From Anolis carolinensis (taxonomy: Eukaryota): DNA of 64,000 nucleotides. Positions within the stretch are counted from its first letter, which is position 1. The number at the start of each line of letters is the position of its first letter. The DNA lies in the NCBI RefSeq assembly GCF_035594765.1, contig NC_085842.1, forward strand, positions 277,869,749 through 277,933,748, written 5' to 3'. The notes under the pieces are model-generated. The model was given only the letters and a program-made list of their open reading frames with translations, did no database searches and was not told where the DNA came from. Made by a program: the position numbers and the translations under genes. This document shows positions 11,101 through 60,906 of the stretch, in pieces.

Positions 11101-11514
11101 GTTCCTATCACAGTATTCAAGATATGTAGGAACGGTGATGGTACATAAGGAGAAATATAGAGAATAGAAAATACTTTATACATTTCTCCAACCCTATCCA
11201 TGGTTGATTATGACAAAAACATTGGCACCAGAGAAGCTATTCAAATTTTAGTGAGAAGTAGGACAGTAACAGATGGGCCTCATCCAGTGACATAAAGTAG
11301 AAAATAGTGCTGAAAGCTGATTTGTATTTCTAAAACTTATTTCTAATTTTGTCATATTGTTCACTCTTATTCTACATGTATCATTTACAGATCTAAGTCA
11401 AGTGAAAGCAATCTATAGAAGATATGACAGGTTGTCTTCTCACCATAAAGAAAATACGAGAATGGCAAGTTTGTTAGCAGTATATACTGCTGAATGTAGT
11501 ATATGAAACAGGAA

Positions 11515-11876
11515 TGTCCGGCTCACTTCAAAGGACCAGTCTGAACGCAGATCAAAGATAGCTGCTCTCAAATCCAATCTTTATTGAAGAATACATGACT
11601 TTGGAAAAGTCGAGAATGACCTAATGTTTACATACAATCATTTTTATCACCTCTGATGCAACGTAACACCACACGCAAATATCATCATCAAACCCCACCC
11701 CTTGTATCACATTTCTACTATTCCCACACACTATACCAATTATAATTGTTTATACTTTCAACCCCGAGTTCCCAGGCTCATTCTATCTTCTTCTGCCAGG
11801 TGCTTCCAGGATTATTTATGTTATGACTCCAAGTCCAGGGCTTGGAAATTCAGCCCTGGGACTTGGTTCCATGACA
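11515..11876 (-). repeat. 3' LTR
   Basis: Direct repeat of 16826-17187, element-sense TGTCATGG...CCGGACA. Confidence 0.97.
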
Positions 11877-11928
11877 TGGCACCCTCTTTTTCTTCGTCCT
11901 CCTCTTCGGCTCTTCTTTCATCACAATC
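11821..11928 (-). CDS. Predicted second coding exon of a spliced Gag (35-aa acidic tail DCDERRAEEEDEEKEGAMSWNQVPGLNFQALDLES)
   Basis: Preceded by TTATTGTTTGATTTATTTCAG acceptor, phase 0, matching donor CTG|GTGAGT at 15144/15143; open to TAA at 11821-11823. Confidence 0.6.
   Translation of the reverse strand, partial: DCDERRAEEEDEEKEGAMSWNQVPGLNFQALDLES
11877..11918 (-). promoter_or_regulatory. Polypurine tract (PPT)
   Basis: Element-sense AAAGAAGAGCCGAAGAGGAGGACGAAGAAAAAGAGGGTGCCA immediately 5' of the 3' LTR. Confidence 0.8.
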
Positions 11929-11951: not shown

Positions 11952-14900
11952 CTATGTGTCCATTTTGTCCAAAGTACCCATATACTTTTTCAGTAAGCTG
12001 CGATGGAATACTGGGTGTATTTTCCCTAAACTTTTTGGCAATGCCAACTGGAAAGTCACTTCGTTGATAACCCCCTGTATTCTGAATGGTCCAATATATT
12101 TGGGGCCCAATTTTCTCGAAGGTAGCCCCAATTTGATGTTTTGGGTACTTAACCACACTAAATCTCCTTTCTCCAATTTATCGCCTTCCACCCTTTTTCT
12201 GTCTGCGAATGTTTTATACTTTTTGTGTGCTTCCTTTAAGGATGCAGTCACTTGACTCCAGCATTCTAGCATTTGAGTTTTCCATTTCCCTGCCCCTGTT
12301 TCTTCATTCTCTGTCCATTTTGGCAACTGGGGCAGAGGCTGTATTTCATACCCGTAAACTACTTCAAAGGGAGTTTTATTTGTTGCTGAATGTATAGTCG
12401 AATTAAAAGCTAGTTCTGCGAAAGCCAGCCACTTAGACCAGTCATTTTGTCTCATGTTAGAGTACATTCGAAGGAACTGCCCAAGTGTCTGTTGAGTACG
12501 TTCTACTGCCCCGTTTGTCATGGGGTGAAAAGCAGAACTTAGACTCCTTTCTGCTCCTAGCATTTCCAAGAATTTTTCCCAAAATTTTGCTGTGAATTGA
12601 ACCCCTCTGTCACTGACCACTCTACTGGGACATCCATGAAGTTTGTAAATATGGTTTATGTATAATTCAGCTAGTTTTTCTGCCGATGGTAATTTTGTCA
12701 GTGCTATAAAGTGGGCCTGTTTAGAAAACAGGTCTAATACTGTCCAAATATAACGATGTCCTTTGCTAACCGGCAGTTCCCCCACAAAGTCCATAGCTAC
12801 ACATTCCCAAGGCCTGGTAGGTTCCGCTACTGTTTGTAATAATCCCATTGGCTTCCCTCCTCTCGATTTATTTCTGGCACAATCATCACATTGAACAACA
12901 TAATTCTTTATGTCCTTCCTCATTCCTGGCCACCAACAATGTTTTGCTATTGCCTTTGTTGTTTTTGTAATTCCTGTATGACCAGCGCTCTGGTTATTGT
13001 GAAAACGATGCAAAATCTTAATCCTTAATATTGCTGGGATATACAGTTTCTTGTTCACAAACCAAAATCCCCCCTTCTGCTCCCCCTTTTCTGCGTTGGA
13101 TGCGATCCACTGATCTCCTTCGTATGACTGTTTCAGTTCTTTTCCCCAACTACTTTCCCCGTCGAATTCAATAATAGCAGTGTTCTCTCTTTGGGTTTGC
13201 GCTCTTGTCCTGACAGCTAAGCCCCATTGTTTATCAGAGAATATTGTTCCCTCTTTTGCTGTGGTTATGCCTTCGTGTTGAGGCATGCGTGAAAGAGCAT
13301 CAGCCAAGACATTCTGTTTCCCTTGGAAAAACTTTAATTGGAAATCGAACCTGCTGAAGTATTGTGCCCATCTAATTTGTTTGGGGGACAATTTTCGAGG
13401 AGATTTTAAATACTGGAGGTTCTTATGGTCAGACCAAATTTCAAATGGGATTCCGCTCCCTTCGAGGAAGTGTCGCCAGCATTCTAAGGCTTTTAATATG
13501 GCTAATGCCTCTTTTTCCCATATGGGCCAACATTTTTCAGTTTCACTGAACTTCCGGGACAAATATCCACAAGGTTTTAAGTTCCCATTTTGATCCTTTT
13601 GCAATAGTACTGCCCCGTATGCACAGTCTGAAGCATCGCAATGGATTATGAAAGGGCTCCGGATATCGGGGTGTTTTAGGACGGGTTCTTCTGTGAAGCA
13701 TCCTTTTAGGGTTTCAAATGCCTTTTGGCATTCTGGCGTCCAACTCAGTTTGGCGCCAGGAGCTTTCACTTTTGCTGTCTCCCCTTTCCCTTTTGTTTTT
13801 AAAAGTTCAGTAAGGGGTGCGGTTATTTGCGCAAAGCCTTTTATGAACGATCTATAAAAATTTGCAAACCCCAGAAATGATTGCAATTGCCTCCTTGTTT
13901 GGGGTACTCCCCATTCTTTTACGTCTGATACTTTAGACGGGTCCATAGCTAACCCTTCTGGAGATATCCGATACCCCAGAAAGTCAATTTGAGTTTTATT
14001 AAATTCACATTTGGACAGTTTTGCATACAGCTTTGCTTCCCTTAGTCTCTGCAAAACTTCCCGGACCAATTCCACGTGCTTTTCTTTGTCTTCGCTCACG
14101 ATCAATATATCATCAAGGAATATGAATACCCCTCGGTACAACAATGGGTGCAGTATTTCATTTATAAGCTGCATAAAGCAACTGCCGCCATTTTTTAACC
14201 CAAATGGCAAAATTTTATATTCAAAATGGCCGAATGCGCAGGAAAATGCAGTTTTCCAAGTATCCTCAGGTTTGATTCTTAATTTATGATATGCTTCAAT
14301 TAAATCAAGTTTAGTAAATATGCTCCCTTTCTTCAATACGGTAATTAAATCCTTTACTAAGGGCATAGGGTATTTATTGTCCTTAGTAATTGCATTTAAA
14401 TTTCGATAGTCAATGCACAATCTTAGGGAGTTGTCTTTCTTTCTCCTAAATAACACTGGGGCTCCGAGAGGAGAACTGGATGGCTTAATGAAGCCTCGCG
14501 CCAGGTTCTTATCAATATATTTCCTCAATTCCTCCTTCTCCTGAACAGACATGGGATACACTTTTGGTTTTGGTAAGTTTGCTCCTGGGGTTATTTCAAT
14601 TTCTACTTCTATATTCCTCTTGGGAGGTAATTTACTTGCCTCTTTCTGATTGAAAACATCCACAAAGTCTCTGTATTCAGGTGGCAATAGCTGTGGGTCT
14701 ATTTCACCTGCTTCATCTTCCTCGTCCTCCTCTCCTGCTATTTTGCTTATCTCCCATTGCGTCTGTTGTTCTTTAAATGCTAGGCTCTTTCCTCTCCAAT
14801 CTACTTCGGGATTTGCCTGTTCGAGCCATGGGATCCCTAGTATTACGTGGTATGTGGCAATAGGGGCTATCACAAAGGATATTCTTCCTTCCCATTTGCC

Positions 14901-16772
14901 TATTTTACATGGGACCCCCCGTATTTCCTTTGTAGATACTTCCCCAGCAGCAACTGATCCATCTAGCTGCGAAAATGCAATTGGGGAGTCAAGCAATGTC
15001 TGCTGGCATTTCAGCGCTCCTGCTAGTTCCGGAGTTATAATGTTCCTAGAACAACCGCAATCCACGAATGCCCTGCAGGTGGCCCGATTCTCTAGCCCCG
15101 ATAGGCAGATTGGCACTACTAGCATGCGTTTGTCTCGACTCACCAGCCTTTCCGAAGATTCTGGGGCTCGCACCTCCTCCTCCGCTCGCCTCCCGGTTGC
15201 TGGCTTGGGCTTTGAGGGTTTTGGCGGCTCCCCCTTCCGGGCCCAACATTCTGCTGCTCGATGGCCCGTCTTCCCACATACAAAGCATCCCGGCTTGGGT
15301 TTGTTGTCATCTCCTTTGAAGGGGATCCCCGGCCTCCCTCCGGGCCTTTCCTGCTTCCTCGTTTCTCCTCGACCTCTCGCCACCGGTCTTTGCTGGCCGC
15401 CGCCGCCCCTGAAACGCTTTACTTGGGCCAGGGTGGATTCGACGCGCCCCGCTAGTTGTATCCAGCCCTGGAGTGTTTCTGGGTCGTCTCTGTGCGCTGC
15501 CCAACTAAAAACCTCGGGGCGTAGTCCCTCTTTAAATATCTCCACTTTGGTCACTTCAGACCACTCTGGTACCCTTTCCGCGAGATGGAGGAATTCCTCT
15601 GCGTACTCGGGCACCGTTTTGTCCCTCTGCTTTATTCCTTTAAGCTGGTCTCGAGCCCTCAATTGCTCTAGCCGGTCTCTGAACCGGTTTTCCAGTGCGG
15701 CGAGGAAGCGGGGCACTGACCTCAGGCATGGGTCGCGTCTGGCATGTAGTTGCACATACCAGCTGGCCGCTCCTCTCTTTAGTGTGTTGCCGATGGCCCG
15801 AACCATGCTTGCTTCGGAGGGGAATGTGTGTGCATTGTCTTCCATATATCCTCTGATGCTAATGAGGAAAAAGTTCAGTTCAGATGATTCCCCTCCGTAT
15901 TCCAGTTTGAGATCTTCCCTCCTTTGCATCCATTCTGCGGCCCGTTGATGCTGTCTGGGAGGCATGGGGAAGGGTTGCATCGGGTTTCCTTGGACGGCCC
16001 CTTTGAACACGCCGCGCCCCACTCCGGCGGTCGTTCTGCGCGGCTCCCGAAATTCTGCCGCTGCTGTCGGCCCTTCCACCCATCCGAATGCGGGCCTCGC
16101 TGTAGCCCCCGCACCTCGCCTTCCCTCGTCGTACAGCACATCCTCCTCCTCTTCCTGGATCTCCGGCTCCTCTCCGCCTTCGTCCGCTAATCCACTGGAC
16201 CCGATCCCTGGCCCCAGTGGTCTTTCCACCCCGACGCCCATTCGGGGGGTTGGAAGTTCTGTCGGAGTTGGCGGCCTCAGAGTTCCCAGAGCTTGCTGGC
16301 GCTCCATTTCGCGCGCCATTCTGTCTCGGAACTCCAGTTCCTGCCAGTATTCCTCATCCCCCTCGCCCCTCGCCTCCACGGGGCTCTGCGTTGAGGCGCG
16401 CTGGCCCCTCTGGCTCCAATCTCCTTCTTTACTTGGCTCTCTCTCGGCGCCATATCGGGTGGGCTCCTTTTGGAGATTCTCTTCCAATAGTGGCACCAAC
16501 CTCCCCACGGTTTCCGACAGCCTGGATAAATTAGTTTCCAGTATGGATAACCGCAGGGCCACGGTCTCCGGCATGCTTCCTCCAGATCCCCAACTGGTTT
16601 CTGCAGCCGCAGAGACGCCTCTTCCTCCTCTGGGAATCCTCTGGGTCACGCCGTTCGGCCTGGGGTACCCCGTAGAGGAAGCTATGGCTTGCAGCGTCTC
16701 TTCCCCCAACGGCCGGGCCCCTGGCAAAGGCCTCCCTGCTCCATTTGGGCTTTGATCTCCTTCTTCATTCAT
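11952..16772 (-). CDS. Gag-Pol polyprotein, single ORF, 1606 aa from ATG 16772 (ORF track starts at an upstream GTG, 16778)
   Basis: PEG10/LDOC1-like capsid region, CCHC knuckle CFVCGKTGHRAAEC, protease FVDCG, RT (LPFGLKN...FLDD), RNase H (CDAS...WSDH), integrase HHCC + D,D,E and GPF motif. Domain order PR-RT-RH-IN is Ty3/Gypsy. No chromodomain. Confidence 0.97.
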   Translation of the reverse strand: MNEEGDQSPNGAGRPLPGARPLGEETLQAIASSTGYPRPNGVTQRIPRGGRGVSAAAETSWGSGGSMPETVALRLSILETNLSRLSETVGRLVPLLEENLQKEPTRYGAEREPSKEGDWSQRGQRASTQSPVEARGEGDEEYWQELEFRDRMAREMERQQALGTLRPPTPTELPTPRMGVGVERPLGPGIGSSGLADEGGEEPEIQEEEEDVLYDEGRRGAGATARPAFGWVEGPTAAAEFREPRRTTAGVGRGVFKGAVQGNPMQPFPMPPRQHQRAAEWMQRREDLKLEYGGESSELNFFLISIRGYMEDNAHTFPSEASMVRAIGNTLKRGAASWYVQLHARRDPCLRSVPRFLAALENRFRDRLEQLRARDQLKGIKQRDKTVPEYAEEFLHLAERVPEWSEVTKVEIFKEGLRPEVFSWAAHRDDPETLQGWIQLAGRVESTLAQVKRFRGGGGQQRPVARGRGETRKQERPGGRPGIPFKGDDNKPKPGCFVCGKTGHRAAECWARKGEPPKPSKPKPATGRRAEEEVRAPESSERLVSRDKRMLVVPICLSGLENRATCRAFVDCGCSRNIITPELAGALKCQQTLLDSPIAFSQLDGSVAAGEVSTKEIRGVPCKIGKWEGRISFVIAPIATYHVILGIPWLEQANPEVDWRGKSLAFKEQQTQWEISKIAGEEDEEDEAGEIDPQLLPPEYRDFVDVFNQKEASKLPPKRNIEVEIEITPGANLPKPKVYPMSVQEKEELRKYIDKNLARGFIKPSSSPLGAPVLFRRKKDNSLRLCIDYRNLNAITKDNKYPMPLVKDLITVLKKGSIFTKLDLIEAYHKLRIKPEDTWKTAFSCAFGHFEYKILPFGLKNGGSCFMQLINEILHPLLYRGVFIFLDDILIVSEDKEKHVELVREVLQRLREAKLYAKLSKCEFNKTQIDFLGYRISPEGLAMDPSKVSDVKEWGVPQTRRQLQSFLGFANFYRSFIKGFAQITAPLTELLKTKGKGETAKVKAPGAKLSWTPECQKAFETLKGCFTEEPVLKHPDIRSPFIIHCDASDCAYGAVLLQKDQNGNLKPCGYLSRKFSETEKCWPIWEKEALAILKALECWRHFLEGSGIPFEIWSDHKNLQYLKSPRKLSPKQIRWAQYFSRFDFQLKFFQGKQNVLADALSRMPQHEGITTAKEGTIFSDKQWGLAVRTRAQTQRENTAIIEFDGESSWGKELKQSYEGDQWIASNAEKGEQKGGFWFVNKKLYIPAILRIKILHRFHNNQSAGHTGITKTTKAIAKHCWWPGMRKDIKNYVVQCDDCARNKSRGGKPMGLLQTVAEPTRPWECVAMDFVGELPVSKGHRYIWTVLDLFSKQAHFIALTKLPSAEKLAELYINHIYKLHGCPSRVVSDRGVQFTAKFWEKFLEMLGAERSLSSAFHPMTNGAVERTQQTLGQFLRMYSNMRQNDWSKWLAFAELAFNSTIHSATNKTPFEVVYGYEIQPLPQLPKWTENEETGAGKWKTQMLECWSQVTASLKEAHKKYKTFADRKRVEGDKLEKGDLVWLSTQNIKLGLPSRKLGPKYIGPFRIQGVINEVTFQLALPKSLGKIHPVFHRSLLKKYMGTLDKMDT

Positions 16773-16811
16773 TATCACTTCACTGCGAATCCGCAGGAGG
16801 GTGAGAACGGG

Positions 16812-16822
16812 ATTCTCGACTT
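16812..16822 (-). promoter_or_regulatory. Self-priming primer binding site (AAGTCGAGAAT)
   Basis: Starts after a 3-nt spacer (TTT) following the 5' LTR, lacks the TGG of tRNA PBSs, exact complement of LTR 16918-16928. Confidence 0.85.
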
Positions 16823-16825
16823 AAA

Positions 16826-17187
16826 TGTCCGGCTCACTTCAAAGGACCAGTCTGAACGCAGATCAAAGATAGCTGCTCTCAAATCCAATCTTTATTGAAG
16901 AATACATGACTTTGGAAAAGTCGAGAATGACCTAATGTTTACATACAATCATTTTTATCACCTCTGATGCAACGTAACACCACACGCAAATATCATCATC
17001 AAACCCCACCCCTTGTATCACATTTCTACTATTCCCACACACTATACCAATTATAATTGTTTATACTTTCAACCCCGAGTTCCCAGGCTCATTCTATCTT
17101 CTTCTGCCAGGTGCTTCCAGGATTATTTATGTTATGACTCCAAGTCCAGGGCTTGGAAATTCAGCCCTGGGACTTGGTTCCATGACA
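16826..17187 (-). repeat. 5' LTR (TATA-like GATAAAAA 16952-16959, predicted TSS about 16928, AATAAA 16891-16896)
   Basis: Direct repeat of 11515-11876; motif order fits U3-R-U5. Confidence 0.97.
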
Positions 17188-17326
17188 CAGGAATACATTC
17201 TCTGTTGCTTAACAAGTGTTTTACCTCATCTTTTCTGTTTCTGTTTCCCTGAGACAGCTTTGACTCCTTCTTAGAATATCACAACAGTGATTCCTGTTTT
17301 AATTACTTTTTGATTAGACTACTGTG

Positions 17327-18180: not shown

Positions 18181-20572
18181 TTTAATGAATCAAGTACTAA
18201 ATTAGTATTTTTATTTAGTGGTTGTATTTAATAGATTTGTATTCTGCCAACACAAAAGAACATTTATCAAAAGTGTAAAGAGACATAAATCAATCCAGAG
18301 TTGTACATATCAAAACAAGACCAAAAGCAATGAAAAGACACCTACCAAGAAAACACGGGGAAAATACAATGGTGTTTTACATGGTGCATGAAGGCAAAAA
18401 ATATAAGTACTAGGAGCACTTCAGTTCCATAGTTAAGAAGTCACAGCTCGAAAAGCCCTATTTTGCATAATTTCAATAGGAGGACTACCTCAGTAAACTT
18501 TTAAGAGAGGTCATCTTATTTTTGTTTCTCATTCCCTAAATATGTTCTATCATAATATCTGGCATATAAAGTTTCACCAAGCTTATTAGGAGAGACAAAA
18601 AGTTGACTCGGAACAATTTTGTAGGGATGGGAGAGAATTTTGTTTCATTTGCATTTTTAAGTGAACCCAACCTAGTTTGTATCACCCAGATGAATATACA
18701 GATAATAACATAATATGCAAAGGGATCATGTAACAACTTCGAGACTAAGTCTGAGGCACTAGACTTTGTCTACGAAACCTTGTGCTACCACTTTTGGTCT
18801 CTCATTCTATAAGGTCCTACAAGATCCCTTTGCAAACCTATATTCCAGACCAACACTGATATTCAAAGGCAGCATATCTTCTACAAACTGTGCATTTCTC
18901 AAAAACTTGGGGTACATTTTTGGCTCAATTGTGGCATGAAAGATGCTTCAGTTAAGGAAAGTTTCAAAAAATGCATCTTAGGGAAATTGTATATGAAAAT
19001 AAAGGCAAATATTTGTGTGTTAAAATCACAGACTGGTGGAAAACTGGCATGAAACAGACTTATGAATGAATGAATTTATGCAGAACTGGCACAAATGCCC
19101 CTAATATTTGTGAGAAATTTATTAACTCATCTATTGATCAGTGCTTATCCTTATTGTGAGGGACTTGTACTGGCATGCCAAAAAATATGGTAATTGCTGT
19201 ATCTATAATCTAGATTCTGGACTTCTAGAGTCTAGAAGTCCAGAGTCTCATTTTTCTATTTAACTTTCCTCTCACTTTAGTTTATAGTCGGAATTGTTTG
19301 ATGAGACAATGGGTGGGTGTGTTGACTTAAGTTAGATGCTGAAATAAGTGGTCAGTTTTGACATACTCTATTTATTCAGTGAGCAGTTTTTTCAGATTCT
19401 TCATCTTTAGGCAAAGGTCACTCACATCGGTGAAAGCACTCCAATGACATGCCCTTGGAAAATAAATTTCAGGTTGGCAGAGGCTCCATACATATTTTCC
19501 TTGAAAGGATATATTCTGGCATGAAGAAGGAGAAAAAATGTCCATGTATACTAGTGTATAGTACCATAAAAATAATGTTTAGGTGTCTCCACTTTCTGTA
19601 TATGTACTAACTGGGTACCCAGTGCAAATGAATGTACAGCTGCTGAATGGATAAATCAACACATGAGAACGCGTACAGTGTTTGTGTCACATGTATAGTC
19701 CCAAAGCTGTCCTGAGAATGTTCTTATTAGTCAACAAAGTAAACTATAACATTTTTATGTTATTGCTTTATGACCTAGTACTTCTATAATTTCTGATAGA
19801 AGTTGATTGATATGCCATACATTATCATACATTCTTTTAATAGTGTCAGACAAGAATATGTATAAATGCATTTATGGAATTCTCAGTGGCTGCTGCTTAG
19901 TGTAGGACCTCTGTTCCCTAAAGATGCATTTAACATCTTCTAGATTGGTTTGGAACAGCTTTTAGAAATAAGATGACATTAGGGGAAAAGGACTTGGTAA
20001 ACCTTTTTAAGTTGGGTAAAGGCCATCTTAGATGTTATGCTTTCATAATTTTACAAGGATTGTGCAAAATAATGGTCTTATTTACAAATAAAAAAACTAG
20101 AAGTGACTAGAAGTCACTTTTCATTTTGGGGGAAAAATATCCCCTCCTGGTCCTGAAACCATTATAAGGCCAAAGATACTGCAGAATTGTCCTGTAGAGA
20201 GCAAGAAGGCATTTTCTAGAAAGAAAATTGGGGTGTCGGGTAGCACTATACTTGGCCTACCCCTGTTCCAAAGTGTTACATCTCTAAAATATAATTCCAA
20301 AGAGGGATTTCTTTGGAGTTATATTTTAAATCTGTTCTTAAACTTTAAAAATTTTGAAGCACTAGAGGAAGATCCCATTACTATATATGGAGTTCATGAC
20401 TACCATTAAATATTGTGCACAAACTTACCTTTTACTTCAAAGGGCATCTATGATCATATCTCCTGGGATTCTCTCAGGATACCAAAAACAATCAAACCTT
20501 AAATATTTTTGTTATCTAGTTAGACTGAAAGCTTGATTTTTTTTGTAAACCAGTTGAAGAGGTCAAAAATCA

Positions 20573-46055: not shown

Positions 46056-48329
46056 CACTAAAGCAATACAGCTTGAATATTGAAATGTGTACTTATATAT
46101 TTATCCAAATATGAATTCCACTGAAATTAACTGAATTGAAATAAAGGCACATGATAGCCTCTGCTCTCTATTGGATGTACATTTGGCTATCTGTGCCATA
46201 ATCGAGTAAGTGATGTTTGCCAGAGGAAGCCGGCTTTCCTACCTGGATCTCTTTACTTGGCTCAGCATGATAAAACAGATGGAGGAAGTAAAAGGAGCAA
46301 AATACACTTTCTTGCCCCTCTTTCTACCTTCTTGAAAAAATATATTGTTTCCCATATAAAATGTGTGCCACATACAGAACTCCAATAAAAGCAGTCCATT
46401 TAGACCATTTTGATAAATGAACACATTTATTTATTGTAAGAATGACATATATGAATTAGCAATTAATTTATGAGCCCATTAGAACTCTAAAGTAAGTTTC
46501 ATGTTTACTTTCACTAAAGCATTTGTAGTTTTCAATCTATGTTGTTTTTTAATATATTGTTAGCCACTTTGAGTCCCATCGGTGAAGGAATAACAACAAC
46601 CGACAATGTTTGTGGGTCCACACTTGTTACTTGTATCACTATCCAAATATTTCTGACTACTTCAATATGGTTTTAGTTAATATTTTAGCATATTGTTAAC
46701 ATGAGAACTGTTCCATTCAGCACAAAAGATAGGCCTGCGGGATCACTACGTAAACTCAAATGCTTGCCTCCTGCTCCTTTCATTAGTACAAATGTTGTGT
46801 AATAGAATATTCTTACCTGTGGGGTTTTCCTTAGATGGTGGGACTAATCTTTTTACTATGAAATCTGGGAAAGACTTAAGTACATTCCCATTCTCAATAG
46901 GTGACTGAAAATATCTATCTCTGAGAAAAATGTGACATCTCAGATGTTCTGAAGGACCAGCATTTATACTTGACAAGATGAGAGGGCTGGGATGTTCAAG
47001 CATTCCTAGTCAAGCCATGCTACAGATCATCATAATTGTAAAAACTAAAAAGCCACTGTAGTGATTTTACCACCAGGGAAATTGTTCATCCATCAGTAAG
47101 ATTATTACGGTTAAGAGACAATGAGGAGAGGGAGTTAAAATTGCTTTAGCCCGTTGAATCATCAGTTCCCTCTGGATTCAAAAGCTTGAATTGGTTTTAG
47201 AGTGAGGTGCCATAAGAGGGCTGCTACTAGAAATCTTAACAAGTTGATCACAGTCTCAGAAACACTAGCGAGTGTGAGTATGATCTCCTCCGAGGGAAAG
47301 TATAGGTTATATTTTGAAGGAGAAAAAGATGGGAGTGCAATTAGCCATGGCTTCGTTTACTTGTTTCCTTGTCGTGTGCATCAGGAAGTCAGCTGTTCTA
47401 AAAAGGGAAATTTGTGTGATAAATAATAAAACCGCAAGTAATTGAATATTACTTCTTGGGGGGACTTCTTGGGGAGGCAAAAAGAGAGAACATTTAAATT
47501 AGAGAACAATAAAAGGAACAAAGTGCAGAAAACATTTGTCTGGAGACGAGTAGCTCCTTATGGTGTTAATGTGTGGAATGGAATAATCTGTGAACAGGAA
47601 GTCTTATGTTTGTGTTCTGCCTAAATTGAGTTCATTAATAAGAAAGGAACAAAAACATAGAGCTGTGATTACCTGTTCAAAAGGAGAGTGTTTGGGGTAG
47701 TTATCTTTTCACCTACAGATCCTATATGGCATGAAGCATATACCAAAGTTTACAAGATGTTATCTTGTCAGTAGCATAATTATACCAGTGTATCCATGAG
47801 CACATTATGTTTTGTATTTTTATTTGGCCATGGTGAGTTCTTTGTATCTCGCAGTTGTTTGCCTCGGTGCATATTCTTTGTCTAAAATGTGCTTGTGTGC
47901 AATTGTGAATGCTTTCTTATAGGAGCCATCTGTGAAGGACAGATCTTTGTTTGAAGTGACCTGCCTTAAGTGTTAACAGAGTGCAAGGGAATGGATGTGT
48001 GGCTCCGATTTGAACAGGAAGCCTCTGCTAGGGCATGTATATGTACCGAAGGAGCAGCGGAGCAGGAGCAGCGTCTTTGTGTCGAGGTTGCCTCCGGAGA
48101 GGGATCTCTTTGTAGGCATAGTAAGAACGCCAGTTTTAGAACGGGTTGGCTTTATATAAATGGCAGGCTGGTGTCACGCCACCAGTGTGATCCAGAAGGG
48201 GATTCGCAATACGCTTTTCTTGCCTGTGCTCCTTCCTTCGCTGTTTTCAGAAACGCCAACCCACCTGTCAGGCAAGCTCTCCTTCAGGGTAGGCCCGGAC
48301 CATCATGTCCTTTATTGTCGTAACTCCCA

Positions 48330-48501
48330 NNNNNNNNNNNNNNNNNNNNNNNNNNNNNNNNNNNNNNNNNNNNNNNNNNNNNNNNNNNNNNNNNNNNNNN
48401 NNNNNNNNNNNNNNNNNNNNNNNNNNNNNNNNNNNNNNNNNNNNNNNNNNNNNNNNNNNNNNNNNNNNNNNNNNNNNNNNNNNNNNNNNNNNNNNNNNNN
48501 N
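48330..48501. other. Assembly gap
   Basis: Run of N. Confidence 1.
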
Positions 48502-49632
48502 GCCTGGGATCTGGAGGCTTCCCAGCAGCATCTCTGCATAATTGTGCTATCTAGGGAAAGGGTCAGAGCTCTTTCAGGACACCTGGTTGGTGGTGGGCTT
48601 CGAGGTGGGGGTTATATTGTGCAGTGCGGGATATAAATAGCAAATGGGGCAGAATTATGGGATATACTTCAATTATGCAGCTTTTGCTTTGGTTAAAGAA
48701 GGCCTGGGCAAACTTGGGTCCTCCAGATGCTTTGGATTTCAACTCCCATTTCCTAACAGCCTCGGGCCTGAGGCTGTTAGGAATTATGGGAGTTGAAATC
48801 CAAAACACCTGGAGGGCCAAAGTTTGCCCAGGCCTGCTACAGACGCACATATGTTGGAAATAGCAATCTCCTAAGCCTTTCACTATTTGTTTGTTAATGT
48901 ATCTATTTTCTAACCTGTATTCTATGTGTCTGTTGATTTGCCAATTTGACTATACCTCTTTGGTGTGGAAGGGGTTATAAACATGTGCTTGTACTGAGCA
49001 TGTTCAGACTCAGAACTCCATTTTGTATTCAGTCTGCTTAACACCTCATTGAAGGTGGATGCATGTTGCTGTTTGAACTTCAATAGAGAAGTATGACTTA
49101 TGGACTTCAGTGAGTACAACTATACTTAAAGACTATGGACTATTGATTAAGAATGATACCCTGTGTAATCAACACAAAGAAAGCGACATCCTATCTGTAA
49201 CTGAACTTTAATAAGAAATGTGCCTATATGGTGAATTAATACAGGATGTTTGTGAGTAAACAAGATACGTTATTTTTCAAAGAAGACTTTGGTTTTTTTT
49301 TAATCTCTGAGTGTATATTTTAAACGAAGAAGTTTTAAGGGAGTATATATCTTTTGGGCAATTACAACTACTACTGCAATTTCAACTTCAAAAAAACAAC
49401 CATCCTTTGCTAGCCAAATATATTTTTGTAGTGGCATGTCTTCAGTTTAACAATACATGGTTCTTCAGTTTAACAGCTGAGTTACCTGTGTGCCATTACA
49501 TGAATGCTTACGAATATTACTTGTTCAAAGAGTTGACTTCTAAGAAGGTTATGCTTTTCTTGACTAGTGGTTTTTAAAAGGTGGTCTCCACATGTTCATG
49601 GAGATTTACATTTGCCAAATGGATATGACATT

Positions 49633-53660: not shown

Positions 53661-56600
53661 AGTTCCAGTGCTTTTTTCAGTCAATCGCCCTGAATAAATA
53701 GTAGTGACATCAAGATAGATTCCCAAAGGAACACAAAAATGCATTAGAATGACAATAAAGGCCATTTTTGCTTCCTTTGTATGCCTCACATTGAAATAAT
53801 AAAATTACCACTTGGGTATATGTAGGATTAGCAGGGAAGGTTTGAACCTTTTAGACTTTGAGCCTCAAAGGTCTAAGAGGGCATCTACACTGTAGAAATA
53901 ATGCACCTTTGACACTACTTTAACTGCCATGCTGTGAAGTTATGGGAGTTGTAGTTTCACAAGGTCTTTAGTCTTCTCTGCTAAAAGTGTTGCTGCCTCA
54001 CCAAACTATGAATCCCAGGATTCCATAGCATTCAGCCATGGCAGTTAAAGTGGTGTCAAACTGCATTAATTTTACAGTGTAAATGCACCCTAAAAGGCAA
54101 AAGAGGAGTGAATTTTACACCCAAATGCCACCCAAGACTGGTAGTGGAGATGTATTAGTGACCAATGTAATATAGAGCAAATGCCTGTGTTTTTTTTAAT
54201 ATAATGTTAATTCTAGTGCTAAGTTGAAGTGTTTATTTTGTATTCAAACAGAATATCTATTTTGTGACAAATCAGATTGCTGATAGCTTTTGTAAAATGC
54301 TGGAGGGCACCGCCCTGCCTCCAGTCCCACTTACCTGAGGGTGCATCTACACTACAGAATTAATGGAATTTGACACCACTTTTAACCGCCATGGCTCAAT
54401 GCAATGGAATCCTGGGATTTGTAGTTTGGCACCAGCACTCTTGTCAAAGAAGACTCAAGACCTTATCCCTTGATTCGATAGCAGTATGCCATGGCAGTTA
54501 AAAGTGGGTCAAACTTCATTAATGCTGTTGTGTAGATGTCCTCCCTGGCGACACTGTGACTTATAGAGCGGACACCCACAAAGAAGCATGCCTCACTCAC
54601 TTGGTTGATCCTTTTTGTCCTAACAAGATGGCTTCCTTGGTTCATTCCTTCCATTTTTAATCCCCATGAAACATTCAACACAGGCCTCACATTCACTATT
54701 TGGCTCCCAGATAAACCATTTCAGCCTGGGCACTACAGGCTCCAGAGTCTCACTGTCCTTCTTTGTGGAGAAAACAAGAGAAACGGATGCCAGCTTACTT
54801 TTAAACAGACCCTGCAGCAACTGGTACGATAAAAGAGTTGGTAACAAGCTTTCCTGAGATGTATCTACCTTGTAGAATGAATGCCAATGGTTCAATGCTA
54901 AGGAATCACGGGAGTTGTAGTATGGTGAAGCACCAGCATCCTTTGGCAGATGAAGCTGAGGATCTTGTAAACTACATATCGCATGATTACATAAGATTGA
55001 GACAATTGAAAGTGGTATCAAACTGCCTTAATTCTACAGTTTAATTGCACCCAACTGAACTTACCCACTTTTCCACACAAGCATTTTGACCAAATTTTAC
55101 CACTGTTCTCCTTTGCTAAGATGGGGGGGCAGAGGGACCAATTTAGACCCAAAAGCAACAGTGGAGTACAACAGGACTGGTTGTTTTGCTCCCACATTTG
55201 GTACCATGGGGTCCGTCTTACATTGTAAAATTAAGGCACTTTGACACCACTTCAATCCTGGGAGTTGTAGTTTGGCTAGGCACCAGCACTCCTTGGCAAG
55301 GAAGAGTAGAGACCTTGTAAAATACAGCTCCCAGGATTCCATAGTATTGAGCTATGGCGGTTCAAGTGGCATCACACCGCATTAATACTACAGCATAGAT
55401 GTACCAAAAGTTTTCATTTGGGGGCAGAAGGGAAGCAAGGAGTGGGCTGGGAATCCCAAGAGCGGTGGTTTCGTGAGGTTTTTAGCCTTCTCTGCTAAAG
55501 AGTGGTGGTGCCTCACAAAACTACAAATCCCAGGATTTCATACCCATGAGCTGTGGCAGCTAAAGTGTTGTCAAACTGCATTCATTCTACAGTATGGAAT
55601 CACCCATGGGCTTCCTGAACGCTTTACCTGTTTCCATCTCAGCCTGTCTCCTCCTCATATCTTCCTTCCTTCCTTCCTTCCCTCCCTCTTTCTCCCTCTC
55701 CCCTGTGTAATGTCATCCTCAGGGTGCCCTGCTCATAGACATTGTGTTTCTGTCCTTATTCACAGATTTCCTTTTCCTACCTATGATACCTTTGGGTCCT
55801 TCCTGACCAAAGGGAAACAAACCTTAGATCACACCCTGTCAGTTGGGAGGAAGCCAATGTGGTTTTGCAAAGTGCCAAATCTTTACTTGTGGTGTTTTGT
55901 TCAATTCCAAGTGTATCCTTTTTTCCCCTTCTATTTCCCAAAGCGGCCCACCGGCCCCTCATCTTGTCTTTGTGTAGTTGCCTGGTTTGTCTCCTTCCCA
56001 CTTACCGAATGAACTAGAAAGCACAGGGAATTTGTTTCAAGATCTGTCTCTTTTCTGTTTACACTGAACCAATAATTAAAAAGATGTTTTCTCTTCTAAG
56101 ACGCAGCTGTGGTTTCTTTGTGTTTCTGGCTGGAGTTGATTTGCTAACCAATCCACTTGCCATCGATATGGAGACCAGTAGGTTCTCCTGAAGACCAGTT
56201 TGCTCTTGAAAAGAGTCTGCAGCAAACCTTAAGGAGCTGCCACTTAGGAAACCACTACCTGAATTGCCCTGAGGAATAATGAAGCCCTGAGGGTGCCTTT
56301 TGTAGATGGGAAGGATTGTTTATCTCAAAGTATATCACTGTCTACACTGTAGAATTAATACAATGTGACACCATTTTTAACTGCCATGACTCAGTGCTAT
56401 GGATTTGTGGAAGTTGTAGCTTTGCAAGGTCTTGGTCCTTCAAAGAGTTTAGGTGCCTCACCAAACTACAAATGCGATTATTCCATAGCATTGCAATGAC
56501 AGCTCAAGTGGTGTCCAATTGTGTTAATTCAACAGTGTAGATGCACCTTTATTCACCTACCTAGAAATCAATAAATCTTTTGAAATAGTTCTTAATTTGT

Positions 56601-59910: not shown

Positions 59911-60270
59911 AAGGCAGGCCCCAAGTTAGGAACAAGATAGAGTCTATAGGTTTGGTCTTAAGTTGAATTTCAACGTAAGTCGGAACAGGTACATCTTGTA
60001 AGTGTAGCTCCATATATATGTGTGTATGTATGTGTAATATATATATATGGAGCTACACTTACAAAATGTACCTCTCTCTGTGTGTGTATATATACATACA
60101 TACATACATATGATACACAGGTACATTTTGTAACTCTATATGTACATATGTATATGTGTGTGTGTGTATGTGTGTGTGTATGGAGCTACACTTACAACAT
60201 GTACATATATACATACATACATACATACATACAGGTACATTTTGTAAGTGTAGCTCCATATATGTATGTA

Positions 60271-60322
<52 letters not shown>

Positions 60323-60425
60323 GGTACATTCTGTAAGTGTATCTCTCTCTTCTCTTTTTCTATATATATGTATATATATAGAAAAAGAGAAGAGAGAGAT
60401 ACACTTACAGAATGTACCTGTGCGC

Positions 60426-60456
<31 letters not shown>

Positions 60457-60906
60457 TATACTGTAGAGTCTCACTTATCCAACATAAACGGGCCAGCAGA
60501 ATGTTGGATAAGCGAATATGTTGGATAATAAGGAGGAATTAAGGAAAAGCCTATTAAACATCAAATTAGGTTATGATTTTACAAATTAAGCACCCAAACA
60601 TTATGTTATACAACAAATTTGACAGAAAAAGTAGTTCAATATGCAGTAATGCTATGTAGTAATTACTGTATTTACAAATTTAGCACCAAAATATCACGAT
60701 GTATTGAAAACATTGACTACAAAAATGCGTTGGATAATCCAGAACGTTGGATGAGTGAATGTTGGATAAGTGAGACTCTACTATATATATATACATACAC
60801 ACACACACATATATATACAGGTACATTTTGTAAGTGTAGCTCTATATAGATATATGGAGCTACACTTACAAAAAGTACCTGCTCCAACTTACGTAGAAAT
60901 TCAATT

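What the first reader, a model, noticed from the sequence alone, without database searches (positions are those of the whole stretch)
16812..16959. tRNA-independent self-priming (Tf1-type) signature
Seen: the PBS position reads AAGTCGAGAAT, with no TGG/tRNA complement. The LTR contains ATTCTCGACTT (16918-16928; also 11607-11617), its exact 11-nt complement, and the match does not extend on either side. That 11-mer starts about 31 nt downstream of a TATA-like GATAAAAA and upstream of AATAAA, where the transcript should begin. A weak U5/leader stem (GTGAG/CTCAC, CGG/CCG) brackets the PBS. Known: fission-yeast Tf1 primes reverse transcription with the first 11 nt of its own RNA, and this is proposed for the Tf1/sushi group. 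Inference: an intact amniote element that self-primes.
Basis: partly seen in the sequence, partly recalled or inferred. Interest (0 to 1): 0.7.

Follow-up and report, generated by a model that had tools for sequence, protein, structure and literature searches.

The report
Self-priming lizard retrotransposon, six families
A young, unbroken jumping gene in an anole lizard has no landing site for a host tRNA; the site instead pairs with 11 letters of its own terminal repeat, five related families keep such a pairing with different letters, and copying errors cluster at the edge of the pairing, so the element likely starts copying itself with the front end of its own RNA, a trick proven so far in fission yeast.

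Summary
Observation confirmed. A 5.7-kb Ty3/gypsy element (minus strand, identical 362-bp LTRs, one 1606-aa Gag-Pol frame) has an 11-nt PBS (16822-16812) exactly complementary to LTR 16928-16918; 0 of 2000 shuffled LTRs match as well. Five further families in the same genome (RT 46-80% identical) each carry their own 10-12-nt PBS/LTR match; in four it lies 30-31 nt below a TATA-like box. The nearest family differs by two compensated pairs. Recurrent copy errors pile up at the PBS edge that pairs with the predicted +1 (top-ranked site in two families), not at +18. No tRNA 3' end fits (38 tRNAs tested); a tRNA-Pro internal near-match is likely chance. Corrections: the CGG/CCG stem rests on a base private to this copy; flanking 'pretzel' stems are unproven; the start site is untested (no raw RNA reads). 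Self-priming is a known, published property of the Tf1/sushi group, vertebrates included, so this is a new member. Extras: this clade lacks the chromodomain, has one reading frame and mostly 6-bp target duplications. The scan noted a similar element before in another genome.

The parts
16826..17187 (-). 5' LTR, 362 bp, TG...CA, identical to the 3' LTR
11515..11876 (-). 3' LTR, 362 bp
17188..17193 (.). 6-bp target-site duplication, upstream copy
11509..11514 (.). 6-bp target-site duplication, downstream copy
16952..16959 (-). weak TATA-like box GATAAAAA at -31 from the predicted start
   Evidence: weak score; families B, D, E, F have a clear TATA-like box at -30/-31
16918..16928 (-). predicted self-primer = predicted nt 1-11 of the RNA (ATTCTCGACTT); A16928 sits in a TCA+1TTCT initiator-like context (consensus recalled)
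   Evidence: start site inferred, not measured
11607..11617 (-). copy of the 11-mer in R of the 3' LTR
16891..16896 (-). AATAAA polyadenylation signal (nt 33 of the predicted RNA; used in the 3' LTR copy)
16823..16825 (-). 3-nt spacer TTT between LTR end and PBS (2 nt in most sister subfamilies and families)
16812..16822 (-). primer-binding site AAGTCGAGAAT, complement of the LTR 11-mer
16810..16812 (-). PBS 3' boundary; the equivalent places are recurrent-error sites among young copies
16830..16830 (-).
16783..16796 (-). small leader hairpin (5-bp stem) before the start codon
11952..16772 (-). single Gag-Pol ORF, 1606 aa from ATG 16772 (1622 aa stop to stop): capsid, CCHC knuckle, protease, RT, RNase H, integrase with SH3_Tf2-1 domain; no chromodomain
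11882..11895 (-). polypurine tract, 5 nt upstream of the 3' LTR

Best explanation
This is a young, open-frame Ty3/gypsy retrotransposon whose primer-binding site is the exact complement of 11 nt in its own LTR, and it likely primes reverse transcription Tf1-style with the 5' end of its own RNA rather than a tRNA. Steps: (1) RNA polymerase II is inferred to start at A16928; (2) nt 1-11 are predicted to fold onto the PBS 106 nt downstream; (3) by analogy with Tf1 the RNase H domain would cut between nt 11 and 12 (not tested); (4) RT would extend the freed 3' end through spacer, U5 and the rest of R and jump to the 3' R; (5) the plus strand, primed at the polypurine tract, would copy the primer to its 5' end and so rewrite the PBS from the primer, which would explain both the PBS/LTR covariation and the error cluster at the PBS edge (inferred); (6) integrase inserts with a mostly 6-bp stagger (duplication length shown).
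For: Exact 11-nt match at the PBS position; 0 of 2000 shuffles, 0 of 1221 internal windows. The helix closes the minimum-energy fold of the predicted 5' 159 nt (-50.9 kcal/mol, z -3.6). Six of six families examined have a family-specific 10-12-nt match starting 1-3 nt after the LTR; own pairs 10-11 of 11, cross-family pairs 0-9; A versus B differ by two compensated pairs; shuffles reach the length in at most 4 of 2000. In 4 of 6 families a TATA-like box lies at -30/-31 of the match. L189, a diverged family-C copy, changes one base in both LTRs and the matching base in the PBS. Errors: in B the last PBS base is the most often independently changed of 4309 rare-variant non-CpG sites (5 events in 40 copies, mean 0.116), in D the second base after the match is top of 4156 (4 events in 34 copies, mean 0.049); the prediction was noted before most B, C, D copies were fetched. 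The +18 window expected for tRNA priming holds 0-2 alleles. Longest tRNA 3'-end match 1 nt among 38 distinct tRNAs. RT-RH tree places it among vertebrate chromodomain-bearing elements, the group for which self-priming is published.
Against: No measured start site, cleavage product or primer-linked cDNA: only assembled contigs of guessed RNA runs were served. The TATA box of family A is weak, family C has none by this score. Flanking duplexes of the Tf1 'pretzel' are no better than chance in A (157 of 276 windows; 20 of 200 shuffles). The error cluster is weak in the window's own subfamily (2 events; 58 of 4649 sites reach 2) and in A2 (1 event), sits in a homopolymer run in C, falls at offsets 0 to +2 rather than one fixed place, and recombination between copies can mimic recurrence. 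Only 38 tRNAs of 22 anticodon types were tested; tRNA-Pro nt 22-35 pairs with the A-family PBS at -15.4 versus -14.1 kcal/mol.
Confidence: 0.9

Rival explanations
1. A 5' fragment of tRNA-Pro (cut in the anticodon loop) primes family A, copia-style, and the LTR match is a side effect.
For: tRNA-Pro(AGG/TGG) nt 22-29 match the PBS region for 8 nt and form a 13-pair duplex with one bulge, -15.4 kcal/mol against -14.1 for the 11-nt self duplex.
Against: The best 14-nt tRNA window beats the self duplex in 7 of 8 rows, with tRNA-Pro in the three A rows and a different tRNA and region in B, C, D and E, so this score is routine. The sister family B changes two PBS bases together with its LTR and away from tRNA-Pro. 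Copying a tRNA-Pro primer should delete the bulged base in some progeny: no PBS deletion in 97 of 97 A copies.
Confidence: 0.03
2. The LTR/PBS duplex is real but is a structural element (packaging, dimerisation or translation control) of an RNA that starts elsewhere; priming uses an unknown host RNA or a nick.
For: The start site is unmeasured; family A's TATA box is weak and a better consensus match lies at -17; the pretzel's side stems are unsupported.
Against: A structural helix need not sit 1-3 nt from the LTR end in all six families, nor begin 30-31 nt below a TATA-like box in four, nor coincide with a recurrent-error site; no other primer site exists at the LTR end.
Confidence: 0.05
3. 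Chance complementarity in one element whose tRNA site has decayed.
For: Eleven bases is short.
Against: 0 of 2000 shuffles; 38 of 39 other A1 copies keep the perfect match; LTRs identical and frame open; five other families show their own match.
Confidence: 0.01

Closest known systems
Tf1/Tf2 of Schizosaccharomyces pombe (self-priming shown by experiment; PMC7175516, passages read)
   Same: No tRNA site; an 11-nt PBS complementary to the predicted first 11 nt of the RNA; Ty3/gypsy domain order; SH3_Tf2-1 integrase tail; single Gag-Pol frame.
   Different: Vertebrate host; Gag has a CCHC knuckle (absent in fission-yeast elements per bioRxiv 2022.12.06.519325); no chromodomain; side stems of the pretzel not supported here; start and cleavage unmeasured.
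[quoted passage not shown] 2001 not held, known only through citing passages)
   Same: RT-RH groups with fish, frog, snake and lizard chromodomain-bearing elements; self-priming and the pretzel fold are proposed for this group; full-length chromoviruses are reported in reptiles (PMC3670739, passages).
   Different: Families A and B lack the chromodomain, have one frame where non-yeast members mostly frameshift (families C, D, E here use two frames), and make mostly 6-bp duplications (97 of 138 copies) where families C and D make 5-bp ones (67 of 78, none of 6 bp). No named reference sequence was available to test identity with an Amn family.
Tj1 (S. japonicus) and Tosmo/Tcry elements (PMC4600332 and bioRxiv 2022.12.06.519325, passages read)
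   Same: Self-priming inferred from PBS/LTR complementarity, as here.
   Different: [quoted passage not shown]

Membership tests
Ty3/gypsy LTR retrotransposon | LTRs TG...CA, target duplication, PPT, order Gag-PR-RT-RH-IN, no env | tested here: met
   best solved relative Ty3 Gag-Pol, E 5.6e-125
Tf1/sushi group | RT-based placement with fungal and vertebrate chromoviruses, apart from plant ones | tested here: met
   quick IQ-TREE tree, 46 rows: A+B (SH-aLRT 100) inside a squamate clade (100) inside a fungal+vertebrate clade (99); careful tree not finished; no named Tf1 or sushi-ichi row
Tf1/sushi group | PBS not complementary to a tRNA 3' end | tested here: met
   no TGG; longest 3'-end match 1 nt in 38 distinct tRNAs from 30 loci, a partial set
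Tf1/sushi group | PBS complementary to about 11 nt of the 5' LTR, covarying | tested here: met
Tf1/sushi group | The complementary stretch is the 5' end of the RNA | tested here: inconclusive
   indirect only: TATA-like spacing in 4 of 6 families, error cluster at the PBS edge; no raw reads
Tf1/sushi group | Three-duplex 'pretzel' (two side stems around the PBS) | tested here: inconclusive
   candidate stems exist but only 1 of 9 rows stands out for each side stem (C for one, D for the other); subfamily A3 changes keep a 6-pair stem by eye
Tf1/sushi group | RNase H cleavage between nt 11 and 12 frees the primer | not testable with these tools
   RNase H domain present; cleavage needs bench work
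Chromovirus (strict, structural sense) | Chromodomain at the integrase C-terminus (usual, not universal) | tested here: not met
   no PF00385 hit in A1, A2 or B; ORF stops 75 nt before the 3' LTR; D and E pass the cut-off, C is below it. Filed as a chromovirus-clade member that likely lost the domain, not as a chromodomain-bearing element

The most novel reading that the evidence does not exclude
The lizard genome holds a fossil record of self-primed reverse transcription in a vertebrate: the plus strand copies the capped 11-nt self-primer to its end, leaving a recurrent-error site (and possibly a cap-derived C, present after the PBS in 5 of 6 families) that maps the RNA start without any RNA data, and rewriting the PBS from the primer so that primer and PBS co-evolve automatically. 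The window's clade (A+B) is a derived squamate branch that lost the chromodomain and the gag-pol frameshift and shifted to 6-bp target duplications while keeping self-priming.
Probability: 0.55. Interest if true: 0.55.

Novelty: new member of a known kind. Interest (0 to 1): 0.38.

Why it matters
Self-priming is shown by experiment in fission yeast and, per the passages read, proposed from sequence for vertebrates. Six young families in one amniote genome give a clean covariation series, and the error cluster at the PBS edge offers a sequence-only way to locate primer ends that could be applied to any young LTR family, including the self-priming candidates outside this group. The chromodomain-less, 6-bp clade beside 5-bp chromodomain-bearing sisters is a natural comparison for what sets integrase stagger and targeting. 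The core claim itself is not new.

Tried and rejected
RNA start site: no RNA holder listed, only assembled contigs of guessed RNA runs; 4 of 24 runs laid show no molecule ends and their depth cannot be read, so nothing was concluded. CGG/CCG stem: rejected as a family feature. A 7-pair leader stem to 16880-16874 seen in A1 breaks in A3. tRNA-Pro fragment priming: rejected. A second 10-nt match in family D at offset 0 was set aside for the offset-2 match that lies 31 nt below a TATA-like box; this choice was mine. The 432-aa antisense frame (14650-15948) has no Pfam hit and is not kept in A2, A3 or B. Primary papers not held: Lin and Levin 1997 and 1998, Atwood-Moore 2006, Butler 2001, Esnault and Levin 2015. 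Searches for an Anolis or vertebrate description of this feature, of the error cluster or of 6-bp duplications gave nothing relevant, but subscription journals, Repbase and GyDB entries were out of reach, so absence from print is not shown. No supplements were read; the additional files of PMC6317226 may list self-primer predictions for V-clade elements. No other vertebrate genome could be searched.

Full report
Anatomy. The finding lies at the 5' end of a minus-strand LTR element. The LTRs (17187-16826 and 11876-11515) are 362 bp and identical, with a 6-bp target duplication. One frame of 1622 residues stop to stop (ATG at 16772) carries capsid, CCHC knuckle, protease, RT, RNase H and integrase with an SH3_Tf2-1 tail, and no chromodomain; it ends 75 nt before the 3' LTR. 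A UniRef protein labelled Anolis carolinensis is 99% identical over the RT region. The family is young: 40 matches to the LTR-leader were scored of 2420 candidates, all 98-100% identical, and 17 of 39 other copies have identical LTRs.

The observation. After the LTR's CA come TTT and AAGTCGAGAAT (16822-16812); its complement occurs at 16928-16918 and 11617-11607 only. None of 2000 shuffled LTRs and none of 1221 other internal windows give a match that long. RNA starting at 16928 folds with this helix closing a long stem (z -3.6, 2 of 200 shuffles as good). Of 39 other copies of the subfamily, 38 keep the perfect match and one has a CpG transition in the PBS.

Covariation. Anolis-labelled relatives were used to find other families in the same genome and whole copies were fetched. 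Families, with RT identity to the window and LTR match: A (95-100%) ATTCTCGACTT, 12 nt in subfamily A2; B (80%) ATTCTTGGCTT; C (61%) AGTAAAAGCTT; D (46%) GCGGAGTCAA; E (57%) ATTCAGTACAA; F (63%) AGTAGTGTTATT. Each is the exact complement of that family's own leader, beginning 1-3 nt after the LTR; shuffles reach the length in 0-4 of 2000 and internal windows in 0-2 of about 1100-1300. Cross-family pairing is 0-9 of 11; A and B differ by two compensated pairs. In B, D, E and F a TATA-like box at -30 or -31 is the best or near-best in the LTR; in A it is weak and in C absent by this score. Within families the match is perfect in 27 of 29 (A2), 24 of 28 (A3, 1 unparsed), 35 of 41 (B, 1 unparsed), 38 of 41 (C, 1 unparsed) and 37 of 37 (D) copies. 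L189, a diverged C copy, changes one base in both LTRs and the partner base in the PBS. E rests on 3 copies and F on 2.

tRNA test. Thirty loci of a tRNA family search gave 61 tRNAs, 38 distinct, 22 anticodon types; the longest 3'-end match to the leader is 1 nt. tRNA-Pro nt 22-29 match for 8 nt and give a bulged duplex of -15.4 kcal/mol against -14.1 for the self duplex; but the best tRNA window beats the self duplex in 7 of 8 rows, with unrelated tRNAs outside family A, so this is routine chance, family B moves away from tRNA-Pro, and no A copy of 97 deletes the bulged base. The tRNA set is incomplete.

A footprint of the primer's end. Template ends being error-prone for reverse transcriptases is recalled knowledge; my searches returned no passage for it. 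If the plus strand copies an 11-nt primer to its 5' end, errors should gather at the PBS 3' edge, not at +18. I saw such variants in A, noted the prediction, then fetched more copies. In B the last PBS base changes T to A in 6 of 41 copies scattered over the tree while the LTR base stays; by parsimony it is the top site of 4309 rare-variant non-CpG sites (5 events in 40 copies; next base 3; mean 0.116). In D the second base after the match is top of 4156 (4 events in 34 copies; mean 0.049; one of these variants was already visible). In A3 the three boundary bases are the most allele-rich of 298 windows. Against: A1 shows 2 events (58 of 4649 sites reach 2), A2 one, and C's 4 events lie in a homopolymer run. 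Pooled without C, 13 alleles fall in 15 nt against 271 in 1485 (binomial p 8e-6), but this includes the A data that suggested the idea, copies were chosen as best matches, and recombination can mimic recurrence. Twelve of 14 boundary alleles are transversions or indels against 145 of 317 elsewhere; the +18 window holds 0-2 alleles. Rows dropped: 2 of 30 in A3, 2 of 43 in C, 1 of 38 in D, and a few more without a full-length alignment. The base after the PBS is C in A, C, D, E and F, A in B; cap copying is a guess.

Side stems. Tf1 needs a three-duplex fold (bioRxiv 2022.12.06.519325, passages). In A neither side stem beats chance (157 of 276 windows; 20 of 200 shuffles), one stem stands out in C and the other in D. 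Inconclusive.

Placement and derived traits. A quick RT-RH tree (46 rows; careful search unfinished; midpoint root; no named Tf1, sushi-ichi or Amn row) puts A+B (support 100) beside C (95) in a squamate clade (100) whose snake members carry chromodomains, within a fungal-plus-vertebrate clade (99). D and E have Pfam chromodomains, C a sub-threshold one, A and B none. A and B have one frame; C, D and E keep gag and pol in different frames. Target duplications are 6 bp in 97 of 138 A+B copies (20 of 5 bp, 4 of 4 bp, the rest ambiguous, absent or incomplete) and 5 bp in 67 of 78 C+D copies, none of 6 bp. In a plant survey 6-bp duplications were 0.4% (PMC6317226, passage); I found no vertebrate figure.

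What is known. Tf1 primes with its first 11 nt after RNase H cleavage between nt 11 and 12 (PMC7175516, passages). Self-priming is called a common feature of the Tf1/sushi group, described for yeast and vertebrate members (PMC6317226) and 'implicated' from fungi to vertebrates (PMC4600332). Full-length chromoviruses are reported in reptiles (PMC3670739). PMC3601003 and PMC4340606 passages added little. The primary papers were not held.

Verdict. It is a new member of a known kind, with a modestly unusual clade profile. Interest 0.38.

Noticed in passing
window 11509-11514 and 17188-17193; families A and B versus C and D: Target duplication length shifts from 5 bp (67 of 78 C+D copies) to mostly 6 bp (97 of 138 A+B copies) on the branch that also lacks the chromodomain and the gag-pol frameshift.
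   Followed up: yes
window 16825 (first base after the LTR's CA): This base is changed twice independently in A1 and twice in A2 and in two A3 copies, never in B or D; spacer length also varies (2 or 3 nt) among A subfamilies. May be a second replication junction; unexplained.
   Followed up: partly
window 16783-16796; L047 leader: A short GC-rich hairpin just before the start codon in A (loop change only in A3) and a similar one by eye in B; possible packaging or dimer signal.
   Followed up: no
L053 (family D), LTR 1514-2489: 976-bp LTR whose predicted start lies 546 nt from the LTR end, AATAAA at +478, and pol runs about 295 nt into the 3' LTR; 37 of 37 copies keep a perfect 10-nt match. 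Possibly the published Anolis chromovirus (recalled, not checked).
   Followed up: partly
L050 7334 region (minus of element orientation), family C 3' LTR U3: A third copy of the family-C primer/PBS motif lies in U3, and L189 carries the same base change there too; unexplained.
   Followed up: no
window 14650-15948 (+): 432-aa antisense open frame over gag/protease; no Pfam hit, not kept in sister subfamilies.
   Followed up: yes
window 26240-26869, 48160-48636, 55386-56012, 60059-60538: Other open frames of 158-209 aa outside the element have no Pfam hit.
   Followed up: partly
window 18716-18834: Imperfect 34-nt inverted repeat (76%), perhaps a small DNA-transposon remnant.
   Followed up: no
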